A DNA stretch of 64,000 bases from the sequence record ON286972; one strand, 5' to 3'. Position 1 is the stretch's first letter. The number at the start of each line of letters is the position of its first letter. A program made the position numbers and the translations under genes. This document shows positions 14,601-44,970 of this stretch, piece by piece. The notes under the pieces were generated by a model, which saw nothing but the letters and a program-made list of their open reading frames with translations, was not told where the DNA came from and made no database searches. Source of the stretch: Escherichia phage A4.

Positions 14601-14633
14601 CAAAAGAAAAGGAGCCATTGGCTCCTTTTTTTA
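14601..14633. terminator. bidirectional rho-independent terminator
   Basis: aaaagaaaaGGAGCCattGGCTCCttttttt at a convergent junction; T-runs on both strands. Confidence 0.7.
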
Positions 14634-26300: not shown

Positions 26301-29300
26301 TGTACCAAATTTAGCATTAATTGCTGATGGGGTACAAGAAATGAATTCACCAGTACTCAATTGTTGTTGACTCCAGATTAAAAAGTCTTTTGCAATTGTA
26401 TTCCAGTCCTGTTGGATACCAGATTCATCAACTTCTTCAAAAATCCAACCATGTTGCTTTAGATACTCACCATAACCACAAATAAATGTGTAAACTTCCT
26501 GGAAGGTATTCATCAAAGTTCCGTAAGGAATGGATGCATCATTTTTCCACTCATTATAATGAACAACATTACGATTATCAACTTTCAAAGATACTTTATG
26601 ACCGTTTTTAACAGGCAATTTATAATTGAATGTTGCAGAAACTAAATCATAACCATCAATTTGGTAAGCACTACCAGTCCAAGTAATTTTAATTGCACTC
26701 ATTTGCTCATTTCTAATATTATTAGAACGAACTAAACCGATAGATTGGTTTTCTTGTGAAATTAGACCAGTTGCTTCTGATGTAAATGTTAATTGATCAG
26801 CTTTAGTGAATCCACCTAGTTTATGACCCACATTAATATGAGAAGAACGAACAATTTCACCGTACTTAGTTGTAATATTTTTGTTTTGATACATCAAATA
26901 ATCACTAACAATCATTTGATAACCAATAACGCGAGTACTATTCTCACCATGTACGATTGTATCACTATTAAAGTTCAAACGTAAACGAGTATCACCATAT
27001 AAAAACTGTGGTTCATTACCAGATACAGTTTTTAATGTATTATTTCGGGTATCCCAGAAATAGTTTGTGAACTGTGCAGGTTTAGCTTTGAATAACATCA
27101 ATAATTCATCATATGCAAACATTGCTGTGTTCATATAAGTGAATTCCATATCACCCATATCACCATAAGTCCACGGTTCAGCACGATGATTTAGACTACC
27201 ATATACAAGACCTAAAACTTCAGGAGCAATGTACTCAATGACGCAAATATCAACACCAGATGCTGTCTGCTTGCCTGTTTTAGTGATCTTAAAGGGTTGT
27301 GTACCAAAACGTTTGTACTTGTCATATTGACCTTTACGTGCACCAAACAAGATAGTACCCGTTGAGCTATCACCTTTCTCGTTACCAACGTCCCATAACC
27401 CACTAGGAACCATGTTACCTTGTTCGTTGATAACTAATGCCTCATAAACATAAACAACATCACCATCACGTTCGCCAACTTGAACTGCGGTAGGTTCATA
27501 TTCCTGGTTCCACCAAACTGGACGTTGGGAGAAACCAAACATTTCCCACGGATGGGTTGCTGGGCGATATGTACCAAATTGGTCAGTGTAGATTGCTCGC
27601 CATGAACCACGGGCTGCTATTTGTGTTTGTTGACCATTAACCATATAATGTGTTCCAGTATAGTTCCAAGTCATCCAGTTATTTGGATCATAATCATGTG
27701 AACTGTTACTGATACCATTGGTTGCGATGAAGTTAATATAACCACGTAGTAGTAAGTTCTTTTTCTCTTCGTCATTATACTCTGTATCTCTGAAATACGG
27801 AGTCGGGAAAAGATCAGAAGCATCTAGCTTAGGTTGGTAATCTTCATCTTTGAAAATAACATCAATACTATTGAAAATTCTATTTTCTAACTCATATATA
27901 ACGTCATCCATTTTATCAACACCGTTTATTACACGGTATGCTTTAGTGATTGCACCTGTATGACTGATGTTATAACAGCTTTGCTTACTACCAGCATTCA
28001 AAAATGTTGCTTTTTCTGGAACGTGTGCTTTCAAAATACCCAAAAACTGTGGAGTTGGTGGTACAAACGCACGAATGAAGCCAGAAGTACTTGCTACGTT
28101 ATCATAATAGAATGGGAAAGTATTATCATGACCCATATTAATAATTGTTAGAATTTCATCAACAATATTAGAAGCATTATTAGCTAAGAAGTTTGCTGGG
28201 TTCTCATTGTACAAACGGATCATTTGTGTATTGAACTTGTTTACGAAACGGAAATATTCGGATTGCATAAACAATACAGATTCAAATAGGTCAATATCTT
28301 CATTTGCAGAATGTGCCATTAACGGTAGCATTGATGCTTCGTTTTGAATAATCTTAGTACCAACGGAGTTATCCACTAAACCTTTAGACAAACGATCTTC
28401 GTAGTCGTTGAAATCATCAACGGAACCACTGGTGATATTCTTTTGAATGATATCTTTAAAATGTAATGTAAAATTACTTTGGTTGATATAAAGAATATTA
28501 TCGTTGTATGGGTTATTTTGTAAATTGATTGGGATTTCATATGCACCCAACTCTTTATTTGGTACTTCAGTACTGCTGTATGTTCTAATTTGAATCACTG
28601 ATTCATCTTTAAGAGCTACATCTTCACCTAAAGTGATGCTTTGAACCTTGTTATTATATACATGACGTGTATAATCGGTTACATCAACTCCATCAACTTG
28701 AATTTCAATGATTTCGGTACTCTTACCATCAATAATTTTCTGGGCTAATTCAAATGTGCGATTGAAACGTTCACTTTGAATACCTTCACCACTAATTACA
28801 TGCCAATCCATATAGGTTTGACGTTCTTCTTTGTAATATTGATAGGTACGATCCACTTCAGTAACATATGCATACATACCTTCTAATGGATTTTTAAAGT
28901 TTTCCATTTCGAATACAGTATTGAATACACGATACATATCAGTGTGTTCTATTTGTGGCGTTTGTTTAACGAATTGCTTTGAATCTTCCTTAGAACGAAC
29001 CCAATCGGTCTTAAGGTGTAGTTCATTATCTTTACCAACTACATTATAGTAGTACAATCCAGAAATTTCAGTTTCAACACCCAAATGATCATATGTATAA
29101 CGAACACTTTGTAGGAAGTTTTCGTACATATAGTAATTATAATTACCTAGTTCGATATTATAACCATATACTTTATCAGTGCCGTAATTATAGTTGATTT
29201 TAAAACCAAATAGGGATGAACCAACAAAATTACTTGATGGATAAATTGTAGAATCATTTAATTTAAAACCATCACGGTCATATAATTGGAATTGTGGGAA

Positions 29301-30347
29301 TACGTTTACACCAGATTTTGTTTGTGCTCTAATCCAGTTAACACCATTCCAGTACATGGATGTATTTTTATATACATTACCATCACGCACCAAAATAACA
29401 TCACCATTATGTGGCTCACCACTTGGGCGGTCGTCAGTTTCTTCATCTGGGTCCAATGCTAGACCATATGTGCGAGAACCATCTTGCATTTTCTTAATAA
29501 AAACTTTATAAATGCGGTTGTTTTCACCAACGTTACCTATACTAGTGAAAAGAATACGCATACCATCTTGTGGAATAATCCCGTCAATACGAATACCATC
29601 ATTTACGTCTTTTTGGACGATATCTTCTGGTTTAATTGTATCAGAGAAAAGATCCACAACACCACGGAAATGTGTCCCGTAGTTAATTAATTCGATATTT
29701 TTATTGTACTCGATGATTGGTGCTTGTGCACGAATAAAACGAGTATCTTGTGTCATGTCAGCAGTTAGTACTGTTCCATCTTCTAGTGTTTGACCAATAG
29801 TATACCAAAAGTTCTGTAGGGACCATGTGTTTCCGTTATCAGCACCACGTTCCATAACAATAAAGTCAGGAGTTGTGATACCATAACTATTTTTACTATC
29901 CCACAAATAGGAACTATAGTTGGTCATTTTGTTTGGGTTAATTGGCGGTGTCCAAGAATAGAACTTACCAGAAAATAGACGGCTCTCGTTTGAAGTTAAC
30001 GTGCCGTAGTGTTCCATGTAGCCAACCAAATCATCATAAAATTGAAGCGAACGAATGCTTGTGTCATCATTACGAGACACATATGCTGTTGATAATTGAT
30101 ATAGCTGACGTTCAACGGTTGCTTCGTCAAGGAAAATCTTAGCAGATGCAGCAGGAGAACCCATATCACCAATATATCCATCAACGATTTCATTATCCGC
30201 TGGATTGAACCATTGTTGAATTACATCATCACTAACCTTTTGAATGTCTTCTAAGCCTTGCATCCATTCAGGTAATCTTTTAATGAAAAGCTTCTGTTGT
30301 ACTGCTTCTGCCGTTTTAGTTGGTAGAAACTTAAAATTATTAGTCAT
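20370..30347 (-). CDS. giant baseplate-associated structural protein (at the T4 gp7 / P2 gpI position)
   Basis: ~3325-aa continuous ORF with no low-complexity repeats. Start moved from 30377 to the ATG at 30347, which has a GGAG Shine-Dalgarno 8 nt upstream; the 30377 ATG has none. Assignment by position after the gp25 and J-like genes only. Confidence 0.5.
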   Translation of the reverse strand: MTNNFKFLPTKTAEAVQQKLFIKRLPEWMQGLEDIQKVSDDVIQQWFNPADNEIVDGYIGDMGSPAASAKIFLDEATVERQLYQLSTAYVSRNDDTSIRSLQFYDDLVGYMEHYGTLTSNESRLFSGKFYSWTPPINPNKMTNYSSYLWDSKNSYGITTPDFIVMERGADNGNTWSLQNFWYTIGQTLEDGTVLTADMTQDTRFIRAQAPIIEYNKNIELINYGTHFRGVVDLFSDTIKPEDIVQKDVNDGIRIDGIIPQDGMRILFTSIGNVGENNRIYKVFIKKMQDGSRTYGLALDPDEETDDRPSGEPHNGDVILVRDGNVYKNTSMYWNGVNWIRAQTKSGVNVFPQFQLYDRDGFKLNDSTIYPSSNFVGSSLFGFKINYNYGTDKVYGYNIELGNYNYYMYENFLQSVRYTYDHLGVETEISGLYYYNVVGKDNELHLKTDWVRSKEDSKQFVKQTPQIEHTDMYRVFNTVFEMENFKNPLEGMYAYVTEVDRTYQYYKEERQTYMDWHVISGEGIQSERFNRTFELAQKIIDGKSTEIIEIQVDGVDVTDYTRHVYNNKVQSITLGEDVALKDESVIQIRTYSSTEVPNKELGAYEIPINLQNNPYNDNILYINQSNFTLHFKDIIQKNITSGSVDDFNDYEDRLSKGLVDNSVGTKIIQNEASMLPLMAHSANEDIDLFESVLFMQSEYFRFVNKFNTQMIRLYNENPANFLANNASNIVDEILTIINMGHDNTFPFYYDNVASTSGFIRAFVPPTPQFLGILKAHVPEKATFLNAGSKQSCYNISHTGAITKAYRVINGVDKMDDVIYELENRIFNSIDVIFKDEDYQPKLDASDLFPTPYFRDTEYNDEEKKNLLLRGYINFIATNGISNSSHDYDPNNWMTWNYTGTHYMVNGQQTQIAARGSWRAIYTDQFGTYRPATHPWEMFGFSQRPVWWNQEYEPTAVQVGERDGDVVYVYEALVINEQGNMVPSGLWDVGNEKGDSSTGTILFGARKGQYDKYKRFGTQPFKITKTGKQTASGVDICVIEYIAPEVLGLVYGSLNHRAEPWTYGDMGDMEFTYMNTAMFAYDELLMLFKAKPAQFTNYFWDTRNNTLKTVSGNEPQFLYGDTRLRLNFNSDTIVHGENSTRVIGYQMIVSDYLMYQNKNITTKYGEIVRSSHINVGHKLGGFTKADQLTFTSEATGLISQENQSIGLVRSNNIRNEQMSAIKITWTGSAYQIDGYDLVSATFNYKLPVKNGHKVSLKVDNRNVVHYNEWKNDASIPYGTLMNTFQEVYTFICGYGEYLKQHGWIFEEVDESGIQQDWNTIAKDFLIWSQQQLSTGEFISCTPSAINAKFGTDFGSVQSIAQNSGGVWSLLDDSNQGIRQFEIETSRIGNIFTVRTTEESNKRIALIRLSISSYEHAVIFDDQTIFGDYIYEPTYGAVQELIKLYGYITGSWSGRLQAPGFIILEAGTLPSFETLVSNFQQYYDNETPVSDVQLNELSNHLIGYQSRDYLQRMITNEPGRIDFYKGFIHDKGTNQVLEKVLRVSKSYNTDEYKALQEWAFRVGSYGNIDGVKNLQFKLINNEFKQQPQMITFDRYSDKVESENEIVYYGEIGEDSRWISRPKGKFSFPMRNGRSENIQLPNIGPVTLDEIDYTTLNYETANQDRISYMNNSGKIPTSVWMFQDINNEWNVYDLVDTGITMVSITPIESEDPYAEQYCKVLLSDDIPLNDGDYYYFVDETNFMPDALRDECQYYTSGLDPKVMVVPFDTSITIDFSTVESAPRLYRYVSRFSTQQERDEYIAKKYSYSAPESTLFDRPTTYDERTNITALYLNVFDPINGVIPGVAMQDVDFISPVDPAQYSSNGELLQAWGAEKVGKVWWNTSTAFYLDYTRPIFDEDGNVDVKATNEYKRYNWGKLLPHSVIDVLEWVSSPVEPYNWEKYCAEQANKNKNNTMYLPSGIAMDENYSSSMEYDPITDTYVVRYYFWVRNTIYVPPMTTRSKSCTDIARIIQDPTQLNVPWFAPINENSFILSNMQFEVNDDTSILTISYRNDNIEVLKHDQYQLCKEGDSYDFNPDIWNSLWNSLIGQETTSTGVVNEIIYPKVETGLGSNKTWFQNVIEARRAFVESANNFYRSQNITTNSVVMNDVFNVKTLKMNPNDITFRVLSFNNELVIAPEDNRFKENDAVFVSSIGTLPAPLSSSSVYFVHIDPNGYIQLMNSPSAVGSTVTITLENRGEGQHKMIKQADFIESLGTSLDMTQYWNLADWYDTGYDSNTEYTQEVSLDDANTKNYQIGDIIRVTDSDGVWTLYIKTASRNNIYWKAIGRENSTVELNSMLYSGYNVYNDDGSLNSHEVNVRNALALLKNSFNLYQSNIVFDMVKYVHTEQSVVDWVFKTSYIYIVGLEQSLVQNYSNDNLINQIVEYFEEVKPYRTKIRSQIEQKTSDDDLINGISNDLDPDGYILVDGVWVKTEKDIWDLEYAQFNDVTQRWEKIGSLPSDFITPNRRFQEIDVIMHYDNIQCDPYDSNYTIDELKSTNSKYQSNASDIGNDYELQRYVYTFPEYDNNTLISQIGIEMTTKYSDLDISNGVIKGIDAWYKAHSTDIAMTDQFTADLEQVTADTNNSNILEDVKKYIQYNTLATRVKMFKNISDDMVSNEIGCPFKGTNYNDNPNTRLPFGFSASSDYNYGYFEISIELYEKYVDMIKKNHPEFTNEDQVRNILEIEYGVYCYKYDTTLNDRYYSDTVHVLSAMRQTFNKNILDHYYVAREILSNRAVDKYAFVMMPRKYVYVVNAAGEYLPIPESYSISDFMEDLFITTGESVVLAEIDLNDLPQDQNNPMYSAYVEVLESINTAKYFNDMNAFDNLALESQTKSIKWEVKDSEIDPYIIDISELNPSGRTMAQLRFTVDGYGFDEVAQEQLKDTSRFQIEGMIVQNPYNMSEAVVSIPSYDIVIENMGKDVFKESEKYFFPISEIKTITEIKVHDEGLKDGDKVMIFTPDGEDYVRFQDGNWVTILSASKIQSSKKPKLYTVRVLGNGNVELVDSNGVVLMFDSITKRESNERFYTLSMNLVRIRTFQDPEFDDNGLKLYENNRHYSIHALNYEVFYDETLYGGKFNDGITPDEIDLWLVSNEIFEVDGITIDNGYNQPISGKGVLGELVRAKMTDGIEITVFEYDVDVIQPVLSYDRVWQYAQPVVNNTFIKEVGCGVINITTVEDEAITYVAKPRSISPYIITDSVLSGAAAQNDDIIVVGYEKVQVRNTDRLLRGVMYSAEHNFTKGTSYSFNGLNLGSIDKFTQYQNFYPPIPLDTFRNGLSITGTDIENLLNIQ

Positions 30348-30380
30348 GTATAGGACTCCATAAATTCGTTCATTCATTTG

Positions 30381-30428: not shown

Positions 30429-33400
30429 TTAAAAACCAATATTAATATTACTTTTAGCTAGAGAGTTAACGATTTGTACGTTATCAACGGTAGCAGTACT
30501 AATGAATATTTGGTCAGGTCTAGAAGGTATCTCAAACAATGAACCAAACTTAGAATTAGGGTTTTGAGCTACAATTACAACAGTACTAATGTGTCTACCA
30601 AGTTGGGTATGAAGGTACGTACACAAATCAGTATAATAGAAACTTTCACCAAAATCCCAGTTCTCAACTGCAAAGTACTGGTTAGTTAATGAAACAATAT
30701 TTTGACGAATTTCATCATCACTCATTGTACTATTAGGTAATTTCACTACTTTGAAATCAGCTTTATAATCCGGTGCTGCACTATTACCAAATAAAGGCAA
30801 ATATTCAGCACTGTGCCATATCAAACTATCACTAATTACAGTTTTCTTCTCAACATCCTTGAAGATATCTTGTAATTCAACCGATGTTGGTGGTTTAGGC
30901 ATATCACCTTTAGCACCATTCTTCAACCAAATATCAACTTCTGTCTTATATGAGTTTGTTAAAACATACATATCAATTAAGTTGGTTCTGCTTGGGTCGA
31001 TTCGATTATCATCTGGTGCATAATGCTTCCAGTGGAAGTTAATAGACGTTCTAGCATTAGTTTTTATAGTAAGTTCAGATGTAATATCCTTATAACCATA
31101 ATAATTAAGCTTTTTATTAGCGTCAACACTTGTACCCATGTTTTTAATACAACGATAGAAAGCAGTTTCTGGAGTAGCCGCACTTGGGTCTGTAACTTCA
31201 GTCATGTTCTGAATTAGAACACCCAAACGGTCATTGTTATTACCAACTGTTTGTTCGATGAAGTAATATTGCCCTTCGTATTGGAATGCAATAATAAAAC
31301 CAGTACCTTTACTATATAGTTCACTTAGTGTAGTTGAGCGAATTTCATTATTACGAATGAATTCTTGTCTCTTGTACGCATTAGTTTCCGCTAATGCCTG
31401 ATCCATTGTGTAATTCCATGTTGAATCCATGATAGTGAATGATGAATTTGGTAATGTCAATGAAGAAATAGTAAAATCTTCATTTTGTTGAAATACCAAT
31501 ATACCACCATATTTTCTAGAATCTTCACCTGTCCAATCAGGAACAATAGATTGGAATTGGTTAGGATTTAATGGAATACCATTACTATCCATACTTTCTG
31601 ATGTAATTACAACTCTTGAACCATCCAAATAACCATTTTCTTGTTTTATTGTATCCAGAATCTGGAAATCAATGTTATTGGTTAGGCCCACGTTACTAGT
31701 ACTGGTAGAGTTTGATGAAAGAATCTCAATTTTATCACTTTGCACTGAACCAGTACTAATATCAGTGATTTTCTTAGAGCTTACAAAGTAAAAACGAACT
31801 TTTTCTCCACCAACAAATACATACTCAACACCATTGGAATCAAATTCCCATGTTTCAGCAGTGTATTGGATGTTAACCATCACCTGTACTAACGAACCAT
31901 TGTATGTTATAGTATCACTAGTGGTTGTCATTTCCAAAGGAACCCATGTAGTGGATACAATATCATAAATTAGAATAAAGTTAGTTTTCTTATCTAACAT
32001 TGCAGCAATATTTTGTACTTCAACTGTGTTGAAACGAGTTCTATATGGGCTAATGTACTCCTGAATCTGCATAGAGGAAGAAATTGGTGTACTTAGAACA
32101 TAAAAACCGTTAGGTAACACGCTAACAATACTAGCCCATACGATATTATTTGAACTACTACCGAATTTAATTAATGTACCAACTTTATAATCACCATAAA
32201 TTGTACCAGTTGCCCCAATAATACGACCATAAGTATTAGTTGCATAGCTTGAACTATATGATGGAACCCAGTTTTGTTGTAATTCAACACGTACTGTATT
32301 CTGCGGATATGCTTGATACTTCTGAATAACAGCATTTTCACCAATTAATGGTTGTATATCATCGATAACAATACTAGAATTAGATTTAGTACTTGGTAAA
32401 TTAACAGATTTATTGTATTTGGTGACATTTTTGTACATTGCACCATCATCACTAAACACGTCAGTGTTTTGATACTTACCAGTTGGGTCATTTATGTCAA
32501 TAAATCGTGATTGTCCACTGTAAATTCGGTTAATCGCTTTAGATTTCAGTACTGCATTACCTTGACTCAACGGAGCAATGTTATAATCTTCACCATTCAC
32601 AAAACGGTTTTGAGTATAATACATTTGTGGTGCACGAGCTTTAATTTGCTCAAGGGTTTCTGCACTTTGTGCACGGTCTGATTCAAATTGTAAACTAAAT
32701 TTAATATCTAATGTACTATTCTCATAGTTAGATTGTGATTTAGTTCTGTAAATGTACTTAACACTTTTGTTTTGAATGTCAGCAGTTTTGATGTTGTATG
32801 TTTCGCCATTACTAACACGATACCAAACGCGATATGTACCACGTGGAACAACACCACTACGTGAATCAGGGAACTTAATACTGATTTGGTCACGATCACG
32901 AGTAGTTACCGCATAAATTGTTTTAAGTTGGCGTGTTACAGTGTTATATGCGATACTTTCCATCGATGGAACCTTAGTCCATTTAGTACGAACTATACCA
33001 TCTTCAGTGATTTCCTGTACCCATACGTCAGTTTCGTTAATATTGTCTACGTTTATATCCTGAATACGGTTTTCTTGTCTTACATCGTATTGGAAATCTT
33101 GATATTGTAATGTTCCTTGAATAAAATAAACAAAGAATCCAGTATTAGGTGAACTAAAACCATTACCATCATTCTGATACACAATATATTTCTGTTCTTG
33201 TGGCTCAGGGTGTCTTTCATCAACACCAATAACGTTAATATCTGGGTTTACGACTTCAAATGTCATCGATTCACCATTTACTGTTGCGGTGAATGGTAAA
33301 TTAGGTGCAGACATAGGTAAAGTGTTCATTCTATACAAATGACGAGACACACCATTAATATCTAAACGTTTTACTGGATTACCAAACTGGTTCGTACTGA

Positions 33401-33893
33401 CAAATGCACTATTCATCACCAGAATAAAGTTTTCATACCAGTTAGAGTCCATTGGGTCATTCCAACGGATAATTTTATCTTTAAGAGATTCGTTATAGCT
33501 GTTGCGAACGTCTTGGTTAGTTTTAATTTCAGTTAGTTTTGCTGTTGCTCGCCCTGGATATGCACGACGAGGTGAATATGAGATCATTTTAGCTAATTTA
33601 AGTACAGATGCACGACGACTAGCAGTATCTAGGAAGTTTTCACGCGTGTTTAAATCCATACGAAATGCTAAGTTTTGTCCAAGCATCGCAATGGTATCTA
33701 AAATGAAGATAAACTGGTCATTCTCAATCCAGTCATTGAATGAATCAGGATATGTTTGACGCAAATAATCAATCATACTTTGACGTATAGTATCGAAGTC
33801 ATAAGCCGTCAGATTTATTTTATAGAAACTTTCATATACCTGGGTCCAGTCTTCCCCCGCGTATAAATTAGATTGTCTTTTTTGTTGTGACAT
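30429..33893 (-). CDS. baseplate wedge protein (at the gp6 / P2 gpJ position)
   Basis: 1154-aa ORF directly downstream of the gp25 homologue; assignment by conserved W-J-I gene order only. Confidence 0.45.
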   Translation of the reverse strand: MSQQKRQSNLYAGEDWTQVYESFYKINLTAYDFDTIRQSMIDYLRQTYPDSFNDWIENDQFIFILDTIAMLGQNLAFRMDLNTRENFLDTASRRASVLKLAKMISYSPRRAYPGRATAKLTEIKTNQDVRNSYNESLKDKIIRWNDPMDSNWYENFILVMNSAFVSTNQFGNPVKRLDINGVSRHLYRMNTLPMSAPNLPFTATVNGESMTFEVVNPDINVIGVDERHPEPQEQKYIVYQNDGNGFSSPNTGFFVYFIQGTLQYQDFQYDVRQENRIQDINVDNINETDVWVQEITEDGIVRTKWTKVPSMESIAYNTVTRQLKTIYAVTTRDRDQISIKFPDSRSGVVPRGTYRVWYRVSNGETYNIKTADIQNKSVKYIYRTKSQSNYENSTLDIKFSLQFESDRAQSAETLEQIKARAPQMYYTQNRFVNGEDYNIAPLSQGNAVLKSKAINRIYSGQSRFIDINDPTGKYQNTDVFSDDGAMYKNVTKYNKSVNLPSTKSNSSIVIDDIQPLIGENAVIQKYQAYPQNTVRVELQQNWVPSYSSSYATNTYGRIIGATGTIYGDYKVGTLIKFGSSSNNIVWASIVSVLPNGFYVLSTPISSSMQIQEYISPYRTRFNTVEVQNIAAMLDKKTNFILIYDIVSTTWVPLEMTTTSDTITYNGSLVQVMVNIQYTAETWEFDSNGVEYVFVGGEKVRFYFVSSKKITDISTGSVQSDKIEILSSNSTSTSNVGLTNNIDFQILDTIKQENGYLDGSRVVITSESMDSNGIPLNPNQFQSIVPDWTGEDSRKYGGILVFQQNEDFTISSLTLPNSSFTIMDSTWNYTMDQALAETNAYKRQEFIRNNEIRSTTLSELYSKGTGFIIAFQYEGQYYFIEQTVGNNNDRLGVLIQNMTEVTDPSAATPETAFYRCIKNMGTSVDANKKLNYYGYKDITSELTIKTNARTSINFHWKHYAPDDNRIDPSRTNLIDMYVLTNSYKTEVDIWLKNGAKGDMPKPPTSVELQDIFKDVEKKTVISDSLIWHSAEYLPLFGNSAAPDYKADFKVVKLPNSTMSDDEIRQNIVSLTNQYFAVENWDFGESFYYTDLCTYLHTQLGRHISTVVIVAQNPNSKFGSLFEIPSRPDQIFISTATVDNVQIVNSLAKSNINIGF

Positions 33894-33941
33894 TTATTAA
33901 TCCTTTAAGCCAATAAAGTACTGGGTCAGTACTGAAATTTT

Positions 33942-33957
33942 ATATAGAAATATTTAT
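33942..33957 (-). promoter_or_regulatory. late-promoter-like motif
   Basis: Minus-strand ATAAATATTTCTATAT upstream of the J-like gene. Confidence 0.45.
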
Positions 33958-33985
33958 CCAAAAGAAAAGCACTCCGAAGAGTGCT
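33957..33985 (-). terminator. rho-independent terminator after gp25 gene
   Basis: Minus-strand AGCACUC-UUCG-GAGUGCU followed by UUUUCUUUU. Confidence 0.55.
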
Positions 33986-33992
33986 TAGTAAA

Positions 33993-34388
33993 TTATAATT
34001 TAGATGTTGTGAATGTCGCCATTCTATTATTACTTCTGGCATCAAACACTATAGTTAGTTGTTCTAATTTATCAAGCATTACATACTCTAAAATTATATC
34101 CAAACGATAACCATATTCAACATTACTAACTGTTAGATTTTTTAAATTCAAACGTGGGTCTAATGAAATAATTCTACGAGCGTCAGCTTCTAAAAGATTT
34201 TTTGTATTATAACCATCAAGTTCAAAAATCAAATCCCAAGCAATGAAACCATAATCAGCATCAAATGCTCTTTCACCTTTCTTTGTATTGAAGTGGTTCA
34301 TCAAATCCTGTCTCACCAACTCAGCATCATACAGAGTTTGTGTTTTACCCACAACAGGAGTAGAGAAACCTTTAAAAACTATTGCCAT
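33993..34388 (-). CDS. gp25: baseplate wedge protein gp25 (gpW family)
   Basis: TKKGERAFDADYGFIAWDLIFE aligns with T4 gp25 TRKGSRPFDPEFGCDLSDQLFE; size (131 aa) fits. Confidence 0.8.
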   Translation of the reverse strand: MAIVFKGFSTPVVGKTQTLYDAELVRQDLMNHFNTKKGERAFDADYGFIAWDLIFELDGYNTKNLLEADARRIISLDPRLNLKNLTVSNVEYGYRLDIILEYVMLDKLEQLTIVFDARSNNRMATFTTSKL

Positions 34389-34401: not shown

Positions 34402-34890
34402 TTATACGGATTCAACAATCCTTGCCATTTTTTCAGCACGAGAAGTTGTTTGACGATACCAAGCGGAATCACGCATTTCTTTGCCAGCGGTTTTATAATC
34501 ACCACGACCCAATGCTGCCATTGCTTTCTTAAAGTTCAATACACGAGATTTACCCATTTGGAATACCATCATCCAAAGTACACGTTGTACTTGAATAGGT
34601 GCAGTCATTCCGAATTGATCGTAAATCTCTTTTGCTTCTCTGTATGCATTTAGGGAATCTTTTTGAAGTAATGCTTCAGCTTCAGCTTCCGTTAGCCCTG
34701 CACTGAAATTTTCACCTTTTAGTACTAAGTGACCATATCCAATGGTATCTAGTCCTAGGCTATCTTTATAAACTCTGAATTTACCATTCTTGAAATAACC
34801 TAATTTAGTTTGGAAAGCAATAGTACCTTCAAACTCTTTAATTTCTTTCAAATACTGTGCATCATCAGGTTTAATTTCCCATTTACTCAT
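34402..34890 (-). CDS. T4-type lysozyme (GH24), stand-alone
   Basis: EFEGT...DTIGYGHL...MVFQMG...SAWYRQT matches T4 lysozyme catalytic Glu/Asp/Thr and the conserved MVFQMG block; paralogue of the gp5 C-terminal domain; two AATAAATATT motifs upstream. Confidence 0.85.
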   Translation of the reverse strand: MSKWEIKPDDAQYLKEIKEFEGTIAFQTKLGYFKNGKFRVYKDSLGLDTIGYGHLVLKGENFSAGLTEAEAEALLQKDSLNAYREAKEIYDQFGMTAPIQVQRVLWMMVFQMGKSRVLNFKKAMAALGRGDYKTAGKEMRDSAWYRQTTSRAEKMARIVESV

Positions 34891-34903
34891 ATACTTCTCC
34901 TAT

Positions 34904-34929
34904 AATATTTATTGGATAAAATATTTATT
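34904..34929 (-). promoter_or_regulatory. tandem late-promoter-like motifs before the lysozyme gene
   Basis: Two AATAAATATT copies on the minus strand between the gp5-like stop and the lysozyme ATG. Confidence 0.4.
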
Positions 34930-37588
34930 GACATGCCTCAATTCTACGAGCCATTAACTCTGCACGACGAGTTGTTTGACGATACCAAGCTGAACTACGT
35001 ATATGAGCAGCAGCACCACGATAATCACCTTTAGCTAAACATCCAAGCATACCCTTGAATTTTTGAACTTTGTATTTGCCCATTTGGAATACCATTTGAC
35101 ATAGTACTTGTTGAGCAATAACAGGTGTTTTTAAATCCCATGCCGCATATATTGATTTGGCATCATTAATTGCTTGCGTACTGTCTCGTACTAATATTGC
35201 TTCAGCTTCTGCTTCAGTTATACCACCAGAAAAATCTTCACCTCCGACAATAAGGTGTCCATATCCAATTGTAGGGAATCCACGGCTATCAATATAACGC
35301 CAGAATTTTCCATTTCTGAAATATCCAAGTGCTGTTTGATATTGGATAGTACCTTCGTGTTCTTTAAGTTCGGATATAAATTGGGAATCACCCGGAGCAA
35401 CTTTCCATCCAACGGCAGTTTTATCAACATTACCTACATTATAATTTTGTTCAACTTTTGGAGCGGTTCCTGCATTTCGAGGCTTACGTTCTCTACGACG
35501 AGGAACATGACGAGAACCACGTTGTGAATAACCAGTTCCAATAGTTCGTATGCGAGTTGATATTACCAATTCATCACTATCAGCAGATGGTCTGACCACA
35601 TCTTTAGGGTTATTTTGTGTTGATGGTTGACCCCCAATTAATGTTTTATTCGCAGCGGCAGAACCCTGACCAGTTACAGTTGTGTAGAATAATCCAGGAT
35701 CAACTGAACCACTAAAACCATAGATATTAGATGAGCGAACTCTTATTTCAAATCGTAATATACCATTAGCAGTTCCTATCACTTGTCCTTTTTCAACAAC
35801 ATCTTTATTGAATAGGTCAGAAGTTAAACCATAGAAAACAGATTTATAACCAGATTTATGCTCAACAATAAGAGCATCACCACTGATACCAACAATCCCA
35901 CCATCTGGTGCAACCACACTTCCACGGGCTTGAATTTCCCATCCACTACTATCACGCTTGGTTCCATTCTCGGTCGTTACACCCTTACCCCAATAACCAT
36001 TCTGGCGAATAGTACCGCTACATGGCATAAGCATATGCAAACCTTCAAACGTCTGCGAATAACCAGTCATTCCTGGTTCAGCCGCCATTAAATCTTGTGT
36101 TTGAACTTCACTTGTCTCTGGGGCATAATTTACAAATTGAATTGCTTCTGTTTCTTGTTGCTCTGCAAGTGTAGGTTGAACATCATTTGCTGGTTGTGGC
36201 TCAACTGGAGATGTTGTACTACCTTGACCACCACCACTTATACCAGGATCAACCCTATCACCGTGGTTTTCTGCATCTTTCCAGTTAGCAATCATATGAA
36301 TGTGGTCATTAAGACCCACTGATGGAGTTTTGAAGTCAGGAGCCATGAATGCAGCACTACCACTATTACCTGCACTATCAACTGTTAGGTTTTGACCACC
36401 ACCACTAATGTTAACGGATGAACCACCAATAACGTTTGCAGAGGATGAACCTTTAATAGATGCAGTTGACCCAGCCGTAATATCAGTACTGCTACCACTT
36501 TGAAGACGTAATGAAGCACCAGTAACCAAACGAAGATCAGCACCAGAATTAATTACAACCTGACCATTGACCTTAGCATCCAAATTACCTACCAATTCCA
36601 GTTTGGTATTTCCACCAACACGAGTATTGAAGTCTTGCCCACTTTCAATATTATAAGAACGACCTGCAACCATGTTAATATCTTGACCTGCACGAATGTT
36701 TATGTTTTTATCACAGTGCATTTCAATATCACCATCGCCAGTGAATTTAATACGAGCCGTGCCATCACGGTTAATTAATAAAACATTACCAGTAGCTTCA
36801 GAAATAAGAAGTTGTGCACCACTACGCGTTTTAATAACAATACCTTCATTCTTACGGGAACCAACACGAGTGTCATTAACTGGGTTGTTAAATTGTGTGT
36901 CTTGGTATCCATCAGGGTCTTGATCCCATGTTGGCTTGGTCAATTCTTCTTCTGTATATCCATCATCAAGAATAAAACTATTACCACGAGGTGTACTCAT
37001 ACCATATACAGTACTGGTTGTTTGACGAGTACTGCTGCGGTTTGCAACACCTGCTTCATCATCGTATAATAAGTTTTGTTTTTTCAATCCTTCAACAGCA
37101 GGAACGTTAATATATTTGTCTTGCATGTCAGTTGTGATTGTGTTACGATCATAATCAGTTACTGGTAATGGCATATCAGTACCATTGTAATTGGTATCCG
37201 CAGTTGCCATTCCAGGAACCATTGTATTCATACGTTGGTCATAAACACATCCAATCCAGTAAGCTTGGAATGTACGTGCTTGTGCAAAAATAACAACAAC
37301 AGTACATCCCACATCTGGTGGAACGGCCCAAAAACCATAACCCTTTGGATATTGTCCATAACTATCTGCACTCGGTATTCCTGGAGTTTTGCCAGCAAAC
37401 GGAGCCATATAAGAAGCTTCAATCCATGAATCTTTAGAGTTTTTATCACTTTGTGAACCTTGTATCCATACTTTTAGCTTACCAGATTTCGTAGGATCAC
37501 GGTTATCCATAACGGTTGCTAATTGTGGATAAGATGGGTCAAAACGACCCAACTGTTCCTTTGCATACTTTTTACTTGTATCTGCCAT
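34925..37588 (-). CDS. gp5: baseplate central spike, gp5-like, with C-terminal lysozyme domain
   Basis: N-terminal OB-fold-like segment (GRFDPSYPQLATVMDNRDP...), beta-helix-like repeats (aa ~285-410), an M23/LytM-like segment with zinc ligands replaced (…GILRFEIRV, aa ~505-635) and a C-terminal GH24 lysozyme domain (aa ~725-887). Confidence 0.75.
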   Translation of the reverse strand: MADTSKKYAKEQLGRFDPSYPQLATVMDNRDPTKSGKLKVWIQGSQSDKNSKDSWIEASYMAPFAGKTPGIPSADSYGQYPKGYGFWAVPPDVGCTVVVIFAQARTFQAYWIGCVYDQRMNTMVPGMATADTNYNGTDMPLPVTDYDRNTITTDMQDKYINVPAVEGLKKQNLLYDDEAGVANRSSTRQTTSTVYGMSTPRGNSFILDDGYTEEELTKPTWDQDPDGYQDTQFNNPVNDTRVGSRKNEGIVIKTRSGAQLLISEATGNVLLINRDGTARIKFTGDGDIEMHCDKNINIRAGQDINMVAGRSYNIESGQDFNTRVGGNTKLELVGNLDAKVNGQVVINSGADLRLVTGASLRLQSGSSTDITAGSTASIKGSSSANVIGGSSVNISGGGQNLTVDSAGNSGSAAFMAPDFKTPSVGLNDHIHMIANWKDAENHGDRVDPGISGGGQGSTTSPVEPQPANDVQPTLAEQQETEAIQFVNYAPETSEVQTQDLMAAEPGMTGYSQTFEGLHMLMPCSGTIRQNGYWGKGVTTENGTKRDSSGWEIQARGSVVAPDGGIVGISGDALIVEHKSGYKSVFYGLTSDLFNKDVVEKGQVIGTANGILRFEIRVRSSNIYGFSGSVDPGLFYTTVTGQGSAAANKTLIGGQPSTQNNPKDVVRPSADSDELVISTRIRTIGTGYSQRGSRHVPRRRERKPRNAGTAPKVEQNYNVGNVDKTAVGWKVAPGDSQFISELKEHEGTIQYQTALGYFRNGKFWRYIDSRGFPTIGYGHLIVGGEDFSGGITEAEAEAILVRDSTQAINDAKSIYAAWDLKTPVIAQQVLCQMVFQMGKYKVQKFKGMLGCLAKGDYRGAAAHIRSSAWYRQTTRRAELMARRIEACQ

Positions 37589-39738
37589 TACTCACCACCT
37601 GGGTTTATTATACTATCTTTACGTTTAAGTGCACGAGCGACAATAGCACCTTGAATTTGTTGCGTGAAAGTACCGTTTGTACCAAAATCATGAATTATTT
37701 TGTTTACGCGATAGATTGTTTCGTTGAATGTGGTTGGCGTGGTTATGTCCAAAATACCAGTATTATCATTAATTGAAACTACTGGTTGTAATTTCAATAA
37801 CAAATATGCTTCAGTTGAAATATAATTTGCATATTTGAAATCCTCTGGATTTATATATAATGCTTCACCATTTACCAACATATCCAAATATTGAAGATAT
37901 GCATGATCACCCCATCCCAACCAATATGGGTCACCAATAACACGCATATCCAACTTACACATAAATGGACGGTTATAATAGTTGTCGCGTATTTTACGTC
38001 TGTCCATTTCATATGTACTGCTATTATCGTTATCAGATGCTGATAAGGTTGTATGGTTATTTGTTGCTTCAGTTGGTATAGTGAATATTTCACCTCTACG
38101 GTCGCCAATACCATCAGCACCCATATCATTTTCTTCATATACACTACGATAATCTTCAATGTATTCTGGAAGGACATGAACTTTATAATTCATATAAGCA
38201 TCTTGTTCTGCTTGATTACCCACACCCATTGCATTTTTTAATTGCTCATCTATTTCATTAAGTAAAGCTGTTTGGGCTTGTGTTATAATTTCACCTTTAC
38301 TTCGTGCTTTTCTTATATCACTAGTTTTATTCCAAGCATCCAACGGGTTACTATATTGAACCCCTTGTATGGTCAATTCTTGTGATGCATGTGTACCACT
38401 TCTGTTACCTTGGTCTTGTATTGGGCCTGGGTTACGTGTAGTAGCTACATAAAATTGTTGGTCGAAATTCATATCCAAATCTAATATTTCATTATTCAAT
38501 CCACTGAATTGATAATTGTATATTTTCATTCTTAACTTTTCTTCATTATCTCTAGGGTCAAGATAACGTTCAGAGTTTTCTAGGAATGTCTCGAAGTTAA
38601 AGTTTTCTGGCTGTAAATCGGATTCATGAACAACATCACCAATACGAAAACGAACAATATTAAAAATAACTTTATATACTGATGTGTTACGTAAATTATC
38701 AAAACCAACATATTGTTTAAGTGGGATTATATTAACAAATTGACGAACGCTAGTACTATCCCCTTCACGAACAGTACATGCATCAATAACATCATCAATT
38801 ATTCTTGATATTGGTGTACTTGGATTCCATGAAAAGTTTTTAGAACCCTGTGAACCATTTTTTGTTGAAGTTACTTCAGTCATTTGTTTAGAATCATAGT
38901 TTATGAACATATCAGCAAGTTCAGGTGCAACTTTAAATTCAAAAAATTTACCTTCTGCCAGTTCTGGAAATTTCATACACAAATAACCATACTGTTGTTC
39001 TGACATTTCATTTAACTTATCTTCCAAATCATAACAAAATGCTCCAAATTGTGCAGCAGTACATGAGAATGTTTCTTTTAATGTCCATTCTACGTTATCA
39101 ACCAATGCAGCACGATTGTGTACTAAGTTAATGGTATATAACATTGTACTACCAGTTGTACTGGCACTTGCTTTAACGTTGTTAATCTTCACTGACCAAC
39201 GTTTTGTAGTGTTTGGTATGACTTGAGGAACACCATCTTCATTATAACCAATGAACTTTAGTTCAAGGATTAATGGTAAATCCATAAATTTATGATAACG
39301 AAGTTTATTACTTAATGATATCAACTCATCATAAAAACTCATACTATTGTTTTCTGACATACTTATTGAAGCAGTATTAAATGTATAGTTTGTTGTCATA
39401 CCAGGAGTTGAGGGACCAGCTTGCGTCATCTGAACATTTGTGATATTATACTTACCAGTAACACCACTTTCAGTGATTACATAACGTTGAACTTCAGCAT
39501 CTGGATTTGACCAGAACATTTTAAAGTCATCTTTATCTAAGGCAAACAAAGTAAAGTGCCATGTTGCTGAATTGTATTTTAATAAAACATTTTCATTGTC
39601 AATAATAAAATCAGAAATCTTTTTATCGTCATAAATTCTATCAGTATGTGTGCTTTGGATTGGTTTTGATTGTACATTACTTACTTTAGCACCATATTTG
39701 TTACTCTGACTAGGGTCTAGTCCAATTTTAGTATCCAT
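37588..39738 (-). CDS. baseplate hub-position protein (hypothetical)
   Basis: 716-aa ORF whose stop overlaps the gp5-like start (TAATG); sits where gp27/gpD-type hubs lie; no direct motif match seen. Confidence 0.35.
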   Translation of the reverse strand: MDTKIGLDPSQSNKYGAKVSNVQSKPIQSTHTDRIYDDKKISDFIIDNENVLLKYNSATWHFTLFALDKDDFKMFWSNPDAEVQRYVITESGVTGKYNITNVQMTQAGPSTPGMTTNYTFNTASISMSENNSMSFYDELISLSNKLRYHKFMDLPLILELKFIGYNEDGVPQVIPNTTKRWSVKINNVKASASTTGSTMLYTINLVHNRAALVDNVEWTLKETFSCTAAQFGAFCYDLEDKLNEMSEQQYGYLCMKFPELAEGKFFEFKVAPELADMFINYDSKQMTEVTSTKNGSQGSKNFSWNPSTPISRIIDDVIDACTVREGDSTSVRQFVNIIPLKQYVGFDNLRNTSVYKVIFNIVRFRIGDVVHESDLQPENFNFETFLENSERYLDPRDNEEKLRMKIYNYQFSGLNNEILDLDMNFDQQFYVATTRNPGPIQDQGNRSGTHASQELTIQGVQYSNPLDAWNKTSDIRKARSKGEIITQAQTALLNEIDEQLKNAMGVGNQAEQDAYMNYKVHVLPEYIEDYRSVYEENDMGADGIGDRRGEIFTIPTEATNNHTTLSASDNDNSSTYEMDRRKIRDNYYNRPFMCKLDMRVIGDPYWLGWGDHAYLQYLDMLVNGEALYINPEDFKYANYISTEAYLLLKLQPVVSINDNTGILDITTPTTFNETIYRVNKIIHDFGTNGTFTQQIQGAIVARALKRKDSIINPGGE

Positions 39739-39749
39739 GTGTTACTCCA

Positions 39750-40064
39750 TTAACCTACACTGCGTGTACCATTCAGGTATGCTTGAATGCGTTGACTTGA
39801 AGGTATTCTAATAGTTATACCAGTTTGAAAGTTGTAAATAGGGTCTTCACCCAATAAATCAGGGTTAAGTAATGCAAATACGTAATACAAACGCTCATTG
39901 CCATACATTTCATACGCTAAACGCCACGGTTGGTGGTTGTACTTTGCAGGTATTTCATAAAAATCATCAGTATCTGCTGGAATTATGTCACGAGGTAATG
40001 TATAATCCAGATACCATGTTTGTTTAACTTTTGCATAAGGTGAATATTGACTATAGTTTGACAT
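39750..40064 (-). CDS. LysM-like small baseplate protein (tail protein X-like)
   Basis: 104-aa ORF; YEIPAKYNHQPWRLAYEMYGNERLYYVFALLNP...GITIRIP fits a LysM-like fold as in P2 gpX / T4 gp53. Confidence 0.45.
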   Translation of the reverse strand: MSNYSQYSPYAKVKQTWYLDYTLPRDIIPADTDDFYEIPAKYNHQPWRLAYEMYGNERLYYVFALLNPDLLGEDPIYNFQTGITIRIPSSQRIQAYLNGTRSVG

Positions 40065-44947: not shown

Positions 44948-44970
44948 GGGAGCCTTAGCTCCCTTTTTTT
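44948..44970 (+). terminator. rho-independent terminator after gene 46
   Basis: GGGAGC-ctta-GCTCCC then TTTTTTT; the convergent endo VII-like stop codon lies inside the hairpin. Confidence 0.65.

What the first reader, a model, noticed from the sequence alone, without database searches (positions are those of the whole stretch)
34402..37588. gp5-like spike with rearranged domain order, a degenerate LytM-like domain, and a duplicated lysozyme
T4 gp5 runs OB-fold, lysozyme, beta-helix. Here the order reads OB-fold, beta-helix-like repeats (DNA ~36359-36736), an M23/LytM-like segment whose HxH zinc motif is replaced (GILRFEIRV; DNA ~35684-36076), and a C-terminal GH24 lysozyme (DNA ~34928-35416). 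Immediately downstream is a free lysozyme gene (34402-34890) that is a close paralogue of that C-terminal domain, with matching DNA blocks. This suggests recent tandem duplication or fusion, and the LytM-like domain may act as a non-catalytic cell-wall binding or activator module.
Basis: partly seen in the sequence, partly recalled or inferred. Interest (0 to 1): 0.7.

Follow-up and report, generated by a model that had tools for sequence, protein, structure and literature searches.

The report
Jumbo-phage tail spike carrying tethered lysozyme
This is the cell-puncturing tail spike of a Rak2/121Q-type jumbo phage: a needle with an inactive LytM-fold domain and a lysozyme tethered behind it, followed by an old separate lysozyme gene; the layout is real and conserved but was already noted in the literature and is not a recent rearrangement.

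Summary
ORF 34925-37588(-) encodes an 887-aa central spike with this domain order:
- OB fold (aa 23-116)
- triple-beta-helix (about 250-405)
- an invariant HxH motif (H429/H431)
- linker
- LytM/M23-fold domain (510-645)
- linker
- GH24 lysozyme (726-887)

A 162-aa free GH24 lysozyme follows at 34402-34890(-).

- The two lysozymes are 55% identical in protein and 61% in DNA, with synonymous sites saturated.
- The gene pair occurs in lineages whose spikes are only 38-44% identical, so the duplication is old.
- The domain order is not a rearranged T4 gp5. It looks like a P2 gpV/VgrG-type spike with cell-wall-hydrolase cargo appended, a plan that many metagenomic spikes share with GH19, M15 or other cargo.

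The architecture was already noted for RaK2 gp078 (2013) and CBB_240 (2017). I did not find the degenerate status of the LytM domain or the internal histidine-cage motif described. The role of the inactive LytM domain remains inferred.

The parts
34925..37588 (-). Central spike gene, 887 aa (orthologue of RaK2 gp078, CBB_240, 121Q gp587, phAPEC6 gp241)
   Evidence: ORF. [quoted passage not shown] About 77% DNA identity to 37 Asteriusvirus-type phages. 99% identical protein P0001 on a 351,638-bp contig.
37241..37522 (-). OB-fold domain, aa 23-116
   Evidence: Pfam PF04717 Phage_base_V, 29.4 bits against a cut-off of 23.8. The N-terminal 200 aa are the most conserved part: 92% identical to 121Q, dN/dS 0.05.
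36842..37240 (-). Conserved neck between the OB fold and the helix, aa 117-249. The structure was not resolved by the monomer model.
   Evidence: Many invariant residues (PRGNSF..DDGY..W221..Q229..D239). pLDDT below 50 for aa 118-196.
36374..36841 (-). Triple-beta-helix needle, aa ~250-405
   Evidence: Profile A3 hits VgrG 9jg8 (3e-5), central spike 8kea, VgrG1 4uhv/4mtk and the gp5-type spike 9f4a. Pfam DUF2345 28.8 bits. pLDDT 71-86.
36251..36346 (-). Apex-like segment with the invariant HxH motif (H429, H431; codons at 36296-36304), aa 415-446
   Evidence: H429 and H431 are invariant in 51 homologues. HxH is the signature of the gpV Apex histidine cage (bioRxiv 10.1101/2023.02.25.529910). 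The best PDB match of profile A4 is the C-terminal apex of 9ndy gp021 'puncture apparatus' with the HxH aligned, but E is 0.27.
36062..36250 (-). Linker 1, aa 447-509: Gly/Ser/Pro-rich, then the conserved P-A-N-D-V motif and a predicted strand plus helix
   Evidence: A467 invariant, D469 nearly invariant. Strand 478-486 and helix 490-500 in the model. dN/dS 0.26.
35654..36061 (-). Degenerate LytM (M23-fold) domain, aa 510-645. Catalytic positions are replaced: S547, E551, G587, I610, R612.
   Evidence: for fold and homology. for the motif replacements in all family members. dN/dS 0.20 against 121Q. The clade occurs only in spike-length proteins.
35414..35653 (-). Linker 2, aa 646-725, with the conserved ELVVxTxVxSIG strand and a basic stretch (PRRRERKPR)
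   Evidence: L650, V675, G691 and P696 invariant. Strand 675-682. dN/dS 0.36.
34928..35413 (-). C-terminal GH24 lysozyme domain, aa 726-887, catalytic E745/D767/T773
34402..34890 (-). Free GH24 lysozyme gene, 162 aa, catalytic E21/D43/T49, no signal or transmembrane segment; paralogue of the spike's C-terminal domain
   Evidence: AGGAG ribosome-binding site 7 nt upstream of the start codon. Maximum hydropathy 0.81. dN/dS 0.12 against 121Q.
33993..34388 (-). gp25-like baseplate wedge gene, last gene of the transcription unit
   Evidence: Pfam GPW_gp25 36.6 bits. PHROG 43.
33967..33986 (-). Terminator-like hairpin directly after gp25. It places the free lysozyme inside the baseplate operon.
   Evidence: This is a consensus match only.
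37588..39738 (-). 716-aa virion structural protein gene upstream. Its stop codon overlaps the spike start codon (TAATG). It may be the hub partner, but this is not shown.
   Evidence: PHROG 11190 'virion structural protein'. No Pfam or PDB sequence match. Junction sequence.

Best explanation
The 887-aa protein is the trimeric central spike of a contractile jumbo-phage tail. Its first ~445 residues form a self-sufficient puncturing device of the P2 gpV / VgrG type: an OB fold that seats it on the hub, a triple beta-helix needle, and a histidine-cage (HxH) apex.

The remaining ~440 residues are cargo on two long tethers: a catalytically dead LytM-fold domain, then an active GH24 muramidase. When the sheath contracts, the needle crosses the outer membrane and carries three copies of this module into the periplasm. 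There the lysozyme cuts the glycan strands locally so the tail tube can pass.

The dead LytM domain has lost its zinc site. It most likely acts as a non-enzymatic accessory that either holds the lysozyme on the sacculus or docks and positions the cargo on the spike before firing.

The free 162-aa lysozyme is an old paralogue, co-transcribed with the baseplate genes. It is most likely a soluble late lysozyme, comparable to T4 gene e relative to gp5, rather than a virion part.

Shown here: the domain identities and order, loss of the catalytic residues, retention of the lysozyme triad, purifying selection, and the age and spread of the arrangement.
Inferred: the trimer, metal binding, where the cargo sits, what the LytM domain binds, and the role of the free lysozyme.
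For: - Domain map.
- M23 homology and fold.
- Loss of all key residues in every family member, while the nearest non-spike relatives keep them.
- The dLytM clade is confined to 870-985-aa spike proteins.
- GH24 triad conserved in both copies.
- Invariant HxH at the end of the helix. Its meaning in gpV-type spikes.
- The best PDB match of that segment is the apex of another phage puncture protein: (weak).
- Purifying selection on every domain (dN/dS 0.05-0.36).
- Baseplate operon context (gp53-like, 716-aa protein, spike, lysozyme, gp25-like, terminator, gp6-like).
- Orthologous spikes were detected in virions by mass spectrometry (CBB_240 in PMC5259590; phAPEC6 gp241 in PMC7247149). The free lysozyme orthologues were not.
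- A separate SAR-type endolysin is predicted elsewhere in these genomes.
- Distant spikes carry GH24, GH19, M15 or Phage_lysozyme2 at the same C-terminal position.
Against: - No trimer model or structure was available. In the monomer model the apex segment has pLDDT below 50.
- The apex assignment rests on an invariant two-residue motif plus a non-significant profile hit (E 0.27).
- In known spikes the HxH apex is C-terminal. HxH cages also occur inside fibres as mere trimer registers, so this one need not be the tip.
- The former active-site positions of the LytM domain vary widely across the family. That is not what a conserved peptidoglycan- or protein-binding groove would show.
- The 'linkers' carry conserved motifs and predicted secondary structure, so 'flexible tether' is too simple.
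- Failure to detect the free lysozyme in virions is negative proteomic evidence for a small, possibly low-copy protein.
- No enzymatic activity was measured.
Confidence: 0.6

Rival explanations
1. The dead LytM domain mimics bacterial LytM factors (EnvC, NlpD, DipM). Once delivered into the periplasm, it activates host amidases or lytic transglycosylases, so the phage recruits host autolysins to open the wall alongside its own lysozyme.
Against: The positions lining the former catalytic groove, which is the surface EnvC uses (to my knowledge, not tested here), are highly variable across the family. Yet the hosts' amidases are conserved. The resemblance is only at fold level, at 20-25% identity. 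Active M23 enzymes score almost as well.
Confidence: 0.1
2. The LytM-fold domain and the conserved linker strands are purely structural. They fold back and pack around the beta-helix or under the hub. This parks the lysozyme beside the needle, as the gp5 lysozyme sits in T4, and possibly keeps it masked until the spike fires.
For: The invariant residues of the domain are fold-determining Gly, Pro and aromatic residues rather than groove residues. Both linkers contain conserved motifs and predicted strands, as expected for segments that dock on something. Linker 1 is about 65 residues, which is long enough (my estimate, not computed) to run back along a needle built from about 150 residues per chain.
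Against: No contact information was obtainable. Cysteine covariation between the domains is not clean. Masking is not obviously needed, because the cytoplasm contains no peptidoglycan.
Confidence: 0.3
3. One reading: a recent tandem duplication or fusion created the spike-borne and free lysozyme pair, on a gp5 whose domains were rearranged.
For: The two copies are adjacent, collinear and gap-free over 158 residues, and share an N-terminal extension. Exact DNA blocks of up to 21 nt exist. Within-genome paralogues are somewhat more alike than orthologues from the most distant lineages, and in GAP32 they are 60% identical, so some later homogenisation cannot be excluded.
Against: DNA identity is 61%, dS about 1.27, and codon sharing is near the codon-bias expectation. 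The 21-nt block is not significant (P = 0.16). Paralogues are 52-55% identical in both this phage and 121Q, against 75-79% for orthologues. The pair is present in lineages with 38-44% spike identity. The fused architecture is universal in the family.
Confidence: 0.03
4. The free lysozyme is a low-copy baseplate or spike-associated virion protein, not a soluble lysis enzyme.
For: It lies inside the baseplate operon, between the spike and gp25 genes and upstream of the only terminator-like hairpin. That position is conserved in distant lineages. [quoted passage not shown]
Against: It was not detected by mass spectrometry in CBB or phAPEC6 virions, while the spike was. Two lineages do without it. 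It is about as similar to prophage endolysins (52%) as to the spike domain.
Confidence: 0.2

Closest known systems
Orthologues in Rak2-like jumbo phages: RaK2 gp078, vB_PcaM_CBB CBB_240 (with CBB_239), GAP32, 121Q gp587/gp586, phAPEC6 gp241
   Same: Same length, same domain order, same neighbours. The RaK2 paper called the domain composition 'very unusual' and noted a beta-helix plus a C-terminal lysozyme and three related lysozymes (PMC3622015). The CBB paper noted the OB fold, a weak central M23 hit (E 6.5e-4), a C-terminal lysozyme and the adjacent free lysozyme (PMC5259590).
   Different: This window is a further member: 77-78% protein identity to 121Q, 99% to an unnamed third-party-annotated record. 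In the papers I read, the degenerate state of the M23 domain, the invariant HxH and the age of the duplication are not described.
Phage T4 gp5 (tail-associated lysozyme; PDB 1K28 and related)
   Same: A baseplate central spike with an OB fold, a T4-lysozyme-type domain and a triple beta-helix. As in T4, a free paralogous lysozyme exists; T4 gene e and the gp5 lysozyme domain are paralogues (my own knowledge).
   Different: The order is OB, helix, (LytM), lysozyme instead of OB, lysozyme, helix. There is an HxH motif at the end of the helix, whereas gp5 lacks it and uses the PAAR protein gp5.4. There is an extra LytM-fold domain. The lysozyme is only about 30% identical to T4L and has a hairpin insertion after the catalytic Glu.
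P2 gpV / phi92 gp138-type spikes (OB fold, beta-helix, iron-binding Apex)
   Same: An OB fold, an intertwined beta-helix and a conserved HxH immediately after the helix.
   Different: In gpV the HxH lies about 12 residues from the C-terminus. Here 456 residues follow it. Metal binding was not tested.
'Evolved' T6SS VgrG spikes with C-terminal effector domains (e.g. P. aeruginosa VgrG2b metallopeptidase, PMC6899460)
   Same: A puncturing spike whose chain continues past the beta-helix into a periplasm-acting cell-wall effector. The helix region matches VgrG profiles.
   Different: A phage virion protein, not a secretion system. No fused gp27-like module was detected. HxH rather than a PAAR cap. 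The purpose is entry rather than killing.
Phage phi29 gp13 (tail-knob protein with lysozyme and M23 domains)
   Same: A tail-tip protein that combines a muramidase domain with an M23-fold domain for wall penetration (PMC9662197).
   Different: The gp13 M23 domain is an active D,D-endopeptidase. gp13 belongs to a short non-contractile tail on a Gram-positive host and has no OB fold or beta-helix.
Bacterial degenerate LytM factors: EnvC, NlpD, DipM, SpoIIQ
   Same: An M23 fold without the zinc ligands. These are the best structural matches.
   Different: 20-25% identity. They are bacterial regulators with coiled-coil, LysM or membrane partners. No partner or activator function is shown for the phage domain.

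Membership tests
GH24 / T4-type phage lysozyme (both copies) | Sequence match to the family profile above the curated cut-off | tested here: met
   PF00959 scores 34.0 bits (spike) and 38.2 bits (free) against a cut-off of 22.3.
GH24 / T4-type phage lysozyme (both copies) | Catalytic Glu, Asp and Thr equivalent to T4L E11/D20/T26 | tested here: met
   Spike E745/D767/T773; free copy E21/D43/T49 (alignments). E745 and D767 are nearly invariant in the family.
GH24 / T4-type phage lysozyme (both copies) | T4-lysozyme fold | tested here: met
GH24 / T4-type phage lysozyme (both copies) | Muramidase activity | not testable with these tools
   Needs an enzyme assay.
M23 metallopeptidase | M23/LytM beta-sheet fold | tested here: met
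M23 metallopeptidase | H(x)nD zinc-binding motif | tested here: not met
   S547 and E551 in the window. The family shows R/N/H/S and I/T/E/L at these positions. Family definition from PMC9662197.
M23 metallopeptidase | HxH motif and the catalytic His about 30 residues upstream of it | tested here: not met
   I610 and R612 replace HxH; G587 replaces the upstream His. No His occurs at these columns in any of 51 homologues.
Degenerate LytM factor (EnvC/NlpD/DipM type) | M23 fold lacking the catalytic motifs or zinc | tested here: met
   Definition in PMC9662197.
Degenerate LytM factor (EnvC/NlpD/DipM type) | Binds and activates a peptidoglycan hydrolase | not testable with these tools
   Needs biochemistry. 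Variable groove residues give weak evidence against a conserved partner.
Contractile-tail central spike (gp5 / gpV / VgrG superfamily) | N-terminal OB-fold domain | tested here: met
   PF04717 scores 29.4 bits against a cut-off of 23.8.
Contractile-tail central spike (gp5 / gpV / VgrG superfamily) | Triple-stranded beta-helix after the OB fold | tested here: met
   Profile A3 hits the VgrG and gp5 helices at 3e-5 to 1e-2. DUF2345 scores 28.8 bits, just under the cut-off. The trimeric state itself was not tested.
Contractile-tail central spike (gp5 / gpV / VgrG superfamily) | Encoded among baseplate genes and present in virions | tested here: met
   The neighbours are gp53-, gp25- and gp6-like genes. 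Orthologues were found in virions by MS in published work, not for this phage itself.
gpV-type Apex (histidine cage) | Conserved HxH directly after the beta-helix | tested here: met
   H429 and H431 are invariant in 51 sequences.
gpV-type Apex (histidine cage) | HxH located near the C-terminus of the spike | tested here: not met
   456 residues follow the motif. Criterion.
gpV-type Apex (histidine cage) | Octahedral Fe coordination by three HxH copies at the tip | not testable with these tools
   Needs a trimer structure or metal analysis. The only sequence link to a solved apex is E 0.27.
T4 gp5 architecture | Order OB fold, lysozyme, beta-helix, with a separate PAAR tip protein | tested here: not met
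   The order is OB, helix, LytM, lysozyme. No PAAR hit in the 25 window ORFs scanned. The rest of the roughly 350-kb genome was not seen.

The most novel reading that the evidence does not exclude
The spike is an iron-capped gpV-type needle whose chain continues past the apex into tethered cargo. The dead LytM domain of that cargo mimics the bacterial regulators EnvC, NlpD and DipM and switches on host periplasmic amidases or lytic transglycosylases at the entry site. In that case the phage breaches the wall partly with the host's own autolysins.
Probability: 0.08. Interest if true: 0.75.

Novelty: new variant of a known kind. Interest (0 to 1): 0.35.

Why it matters
Central spikes have been characterised structurally in two forms: T4 gp5, with the lysozyme inserted before the needle, and P2 gpV, a bare needle with an iron apex.

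This family shows a third plan that is common in jumbo and metagenomic phages. It is a complete needle with cell-wall hydrolases appended behind the apex motif, much like effector-carrying VgrG spikes of type VI secretion.

If the internal HxH really forms the tip, the rule 'HxH near the C-terminus marks the apex' needs amending. The question of how about 50 kDa of cargo per chain is stowed and released at the tip also becomes a concrete structural problem.

The dead LytM domain is, as far as I could find, an undescribed use of that fold in a phage entry device. The practical value is modest: better annotation of these spikes, and two candidate muralytic enzymes.

Tried and rejected
- A single-sequence search of the spike against PDB sequences found only lysozymes. 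The M23 and VgrG links needed family profiles.
- I tried to show that shorter distant homologues end just after the HxH. Only P0089, P0090 and P0096 have an HxH at a comparable position, each followed by 85-100 more residues. Most others have none, so this gave no clean support.
It was redone with a smaller set, and the lysozyme tree stayed unresolved.
- Cysteine covariation between the LytM and lysozyme domains was tested as a proxy for contact. There was no consistent pairing.
- The 716-aa upstream protein was tested as a gp27-like hub. It has no Pfam or PDB sequence match, so it is left unassigned.
- No supplementary peptide tables were held for phAPEC6. The CBB supplements gave no peptide positions, so I could not tell whether the C-terminal domains are present in virions.
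- A literature search for 'degenerate LytM' with 'phage' and 'spike' found no papers.
- My first numbering of the catalytic-His equivalent (G585) was wrong. It was corrected to G587 after a profile alignment.
They were used only to place motifs.


Full report
**What the window is.** The region lies in a late structural operon of a jumbo myophage of the Rak2/121Q/PBECO4 group. The 3.2-kb stretch matches 37 phage records, 32 of them nearly full length, at about 77% DNA identity. Almost all are 320-380-kb Escherichia or Salmonella phages. A protein 99% identical to the spike sits on a 351,638-bp contig (P0001). All genes are on the minus strand, in this order:

| Gene | Coordinates |
|---|---|
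| gp53-like wedge | 39750-40064 |
| 716-aa virion protein | 37588-39738 |
| spike | 34925-37588 |
| free lysozyme | 34402-34890 |
| gp25-like | 33993-34388 |
| terminator-like hairpin | 33967-33986 |
| gp6-like wedge | 30429-33893 |

The 716-aa gene's stop codon overlaps the spike's start codon (TAATG). The free lysozyme has its own AGGAG ribosome-binding site.

**Check of the observation.**
- Pfam finds the OB fold (aa 23-116, above the cut-off), a VgrG-type helix (DUF2345, just below the cut-off), a weak M23 match (aa 555-608, 20 bits, below the cut-off) and Phage_lysozyme (aa 765-882, above the cut-off).
- An AlphaFold2 model built on 51 homologues is confident for the helix (about 250-395), a beta-rich domain (510-650, pLDDT 85-92) and the lysozyme (720-887).
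- A profile of the helix region matches VgrG and gp5-type spike helices in the PDB, with 9jg8 at 3e-5, plus 8kea, 4uhv, 4mtk and 9f4a.

**The middle domain.** The weak Pfam hit is real.
- A 32-sequence family profile retrieves only M23/LytM chains at the top of a PDB sequence search: LasA 9e-7, SpoIIQ 4e-6, DipM 3e-5, then zoocin A, Csd2/TagE, Pgp3, ShyA and EnvC.
- A separate domain model (pLDDT 87, pTM 0.80) gives 50 of 50 top Foldseek matches as M23/LytM folds, led by DipM, Csd3 and EnvC.

The M23 family is defined by the H(x)nD and HxH motifs, and folds lacking them are termed degenerate (PMC9662197). Here the residues at those positions are S547 and E551 for H(x)3D, G587 for the upstream catalytic His, and I610 and R612 for HxH. 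Only the structural His of 'IxHxxGY' (H577) and the 'FEIR' arginine (R616) remain. None of 51 homologues, down to 36% identity, has more than one of the key residues. The nearest non-spike relatives in an exhaustive search of 1.84 billion representatives include canonical enzymes with all of them.

That search also shows the spike-type domain is a tight clade. Seven representatives score above 130 bits, all 872-984 aa long with the domain at the same relative position. Scores then fall to 76 bits or less. dN/dS for the domain against 121Q is 0.20. This is therefore an ancestral, maintained, non-catalytic LytM domain, not a decaying one.

The copies align without gaps over 158 residues at 55% identity. 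DNA identity is 61%, third-position identity 49%, dN 0.42 and dS about 1.27. Among 87 identical residues, 54 use the same codon, against 47 expected from codon usage. The longest exact block (21 nt, encoding the conserved AWYRQTT) is not unusual once conserved residues are allowed for (P = 0.16).

Paralogues are 52-55% identical both here and in 121Q, whereas orthologues are 75-79% identical. The spike / free lysozyme / gp25 order is also found next to spikes only 44%, 40% and 38% identical to this one (P0077, P0079, P0084). Two related lineages (P0080, P0082) go straight from spike to gp25.

A bootstrapped NJ tree does not resolve the history. The core spike-domain clade gets 92%, the core free clade plus the core spike clade 45%, and all free copies together 0%. 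Within-genome identity exceeds the most distant orthologue identities, and it reaches 60% in GAP32. One ancient duplication with later homogenisation therefore cannot be separated from repeated duplication. Either way, the last such event predates the radiation of the core group, so 'recent' is rejected.

Direct paralogy is supported by a shared N-terminal W-x-V-x-x-x-D extension that is absent from the related 150-aa enterobacterial prophage endolysins. Those endolysins are otherwise about as similar to the free copy (52%) as the spike domain is.

Directly after the helix, two histidines (H429 and H431, in 'LNxHIH') are invariant in all 51 homologues. They are the only invariant residues in an 80-residue stretch.

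In P2 gpV, phi92 gp138 and many other spikes, an HxH motif at the end of the helix forms an iron-binding histidine cage. It is the recognised signature of the Apex domain. Spikes without it, such as T4 gp5, use a separate PAAR protein (bioRxiv 10.1101/2023.02.25.529910).

The best PDB match to a profile of this segment is the C-terminal apex of a 207-aa phage 'puncture apparatus' protein (9ndy gp021), with the HxH aligned. At E = 0.27 this is only suggestive. No PAAR domain was found in the 25 window ORFs scanned, which is weak negative evidence given a genome of about 350 kb.

If this is an apex, it is unusual in being internal, because 456 residues follow it. The same paper notes that HxH cages also occur inside fibres as trimer registers, so the tip assignment remains an inference.

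**How it most likely works.** Residues 1-445 look like a complete gpV/VgrG-type puncturing device. Residues 447-887 are cargo: linker, dead LytM domain, linker, active lysozyme.

This is not a shuffled T4 gp5. More distant spikes sharing the N-terminal part carry GH24, GH19, an M15 peptidase or a Phage_lysozyme2 domain at the same C-terminal position. That pattern parallels effector-bearing VgrG spikes of type VI secretion (PMC6899460).

The likely sequence of events is as follows. Sheath contraction drives the needle through the outer membrane, three tethered muralytic modules reach the peptidoglycan, and the lysozyme opens it for the tube.

For the LytM domain I favour a non-enzymatic accessory role: holding the lysozyme on the sacculus, or docking the cargo on the spike. 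Host-autolysin activation in the manner of EnvC, NlpD or DipM is a less likely but more interesting rival. The variability of the former active-site positions, the conserved motifs and the predicted strands in both linkers lean towards a structural or docking role. Nothing here is decisive.

The free lysozyme has no signal or membrane segment. It is under strong purifying selection (dN/dS 0.12). Its orthologues were not detected in CBB or phAPEC6 virions, whereas the spike orthologues were. I regard it as a soluble late lysozyme, comparable to T4 gene e relative to gp5. Its conserved place inside the baseplate operon keeps a virion role open.

**Relation to the literature and novelty.** The unusual architecture has been reported. 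[quoted passage not shown] For CBB_240 the OB fold, a possible central M23 domain (E 6.5e-4), the C-terminal lysozyme and the adjacent lysozyme CBB_239 were all described (PMC5259590). [quoted passage not shown]

I did not find four points described in the papers read or searched:
- the demonstration that the M23 domain is a universally degenerate LytM fold confined to this spike clade;
- the invariant internal HxH;
- the evidence that 'needle plus C-terminal hydrolase' is a broad modular class;
- the dating of the lysozyme paralogy.

This is a modest advance on a known protein family, not a new kind of system.

**Verdict.** The domain order and the non-catalytic LytM domain stand, while the recent duplication and the rearrangement of gp5 do not. 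Interest is moderate to low. The architecture is conserved, annotated and already remarked upon, but the internal histidine-cage motif and the dead LytM domain pose a concrete structural question worth a trimer prediction or a baseplate reconstruction.

Noticed in passing
window 20370-30377 (-): A 3335-aa ORF with no Pfam match lies directly downstream of the gp6-like wedge gene. Counterparts are 121Q gene 582 ('virion structural protein') and a 3508-aa ORF in the distant locus L002.
   Followed up: no
window 33894-33992; L001 4756-5520: Phage 121Q carries an HNH endonuclease gene between its gp6-like and gp25-like genes. The window has only a 99-nt spacer there, containing a terminator-like hairpin (33967-33986, minus strand).
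   Followed up: partly
L002 6001-9004; L006 4001-7269: Two distant lineages (spikes P0082 and P0080) have the spike gene followed directly by gp25, with no free lysozyme. P0077, P0079 and P0084 do have one. This means either a loss or a later gain of the free copy.
   Followed up: partly
GAP32 proteins P0174 and P0036 (no locus fetched): In Cronobacter phage GAP32 the free and spike-borne lysozymes are 60% identical. That is as close as each is to its orthologue in the window (56% and 62%), which hints at concerted evolution between the neighbouring copies.
   Followed up: partly
window 36062-36250 and 35414-35653 (-): The two 'linkers' of the spike are not featureless. Linker 1 has a conserved P-A-N-D-V motif (A467 invariant) with a predicted strand (478-486) and helix (490-500). 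Linker 2 has a conserved ELVVxTxVxSIG strand (V675 invariant) followed by a basic PRRRERKPR stretch. Their function is unknown.
   Followed up: no
window 36251-36304 (-), spike aa 429-446: Beyond the invariant HxH, most family members have a third His two residues later (HIHxH; the window has Ile there) and a conserved 'NHS/NHG' about 13 residues downstream. This may be a more elaborate metal site than the gpV cage.
   Followed up: no
spike aa 523, 645, 886: Cysteines are conserved in 65%, 45% and 75% of homologues respectively. C886 is the penultimate residue. No clean covariation was found that would indicate a fixed disulfide between the LytM and lysozyme domains.
   Followed up: yes
window 14631-15095 (-) and 15105-16448 (-): A NUDIX hydrolase gene (56.8 bits) lies immediately next to the T4 gp15-like tail-sheath stabiliser gene (80.6 bits), within the structural gene block.
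   Followed up: no
window 57987-58295 (+) and 44955-45446 (-): There is a 102-aa ORF with a T5orf172/MUG113 domain (49 bits). There is also a 163-aa ORF with a weak Endonuclease VII match (18 bits, below the cut-off).
   Followed up: no
window 37586-37590: The stop codon of the 716-aa virion protein gene overlaps the spike start codon (TAATG), which suggests translational coupling of the two proteins.
   Followed up: partly
both lysozyme copies; spike aa 747-763, free aa 23-39: Both copies, and the related 150-aa enterobacterial prophage endolysins, share an insertion of about 13 residues (TxxYQxxxGYFxNGKF) right after the catalytic Glu. T4 lysozyme lacks it, so it marks a distinct GH24 subfamily.
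   Followed up: partly
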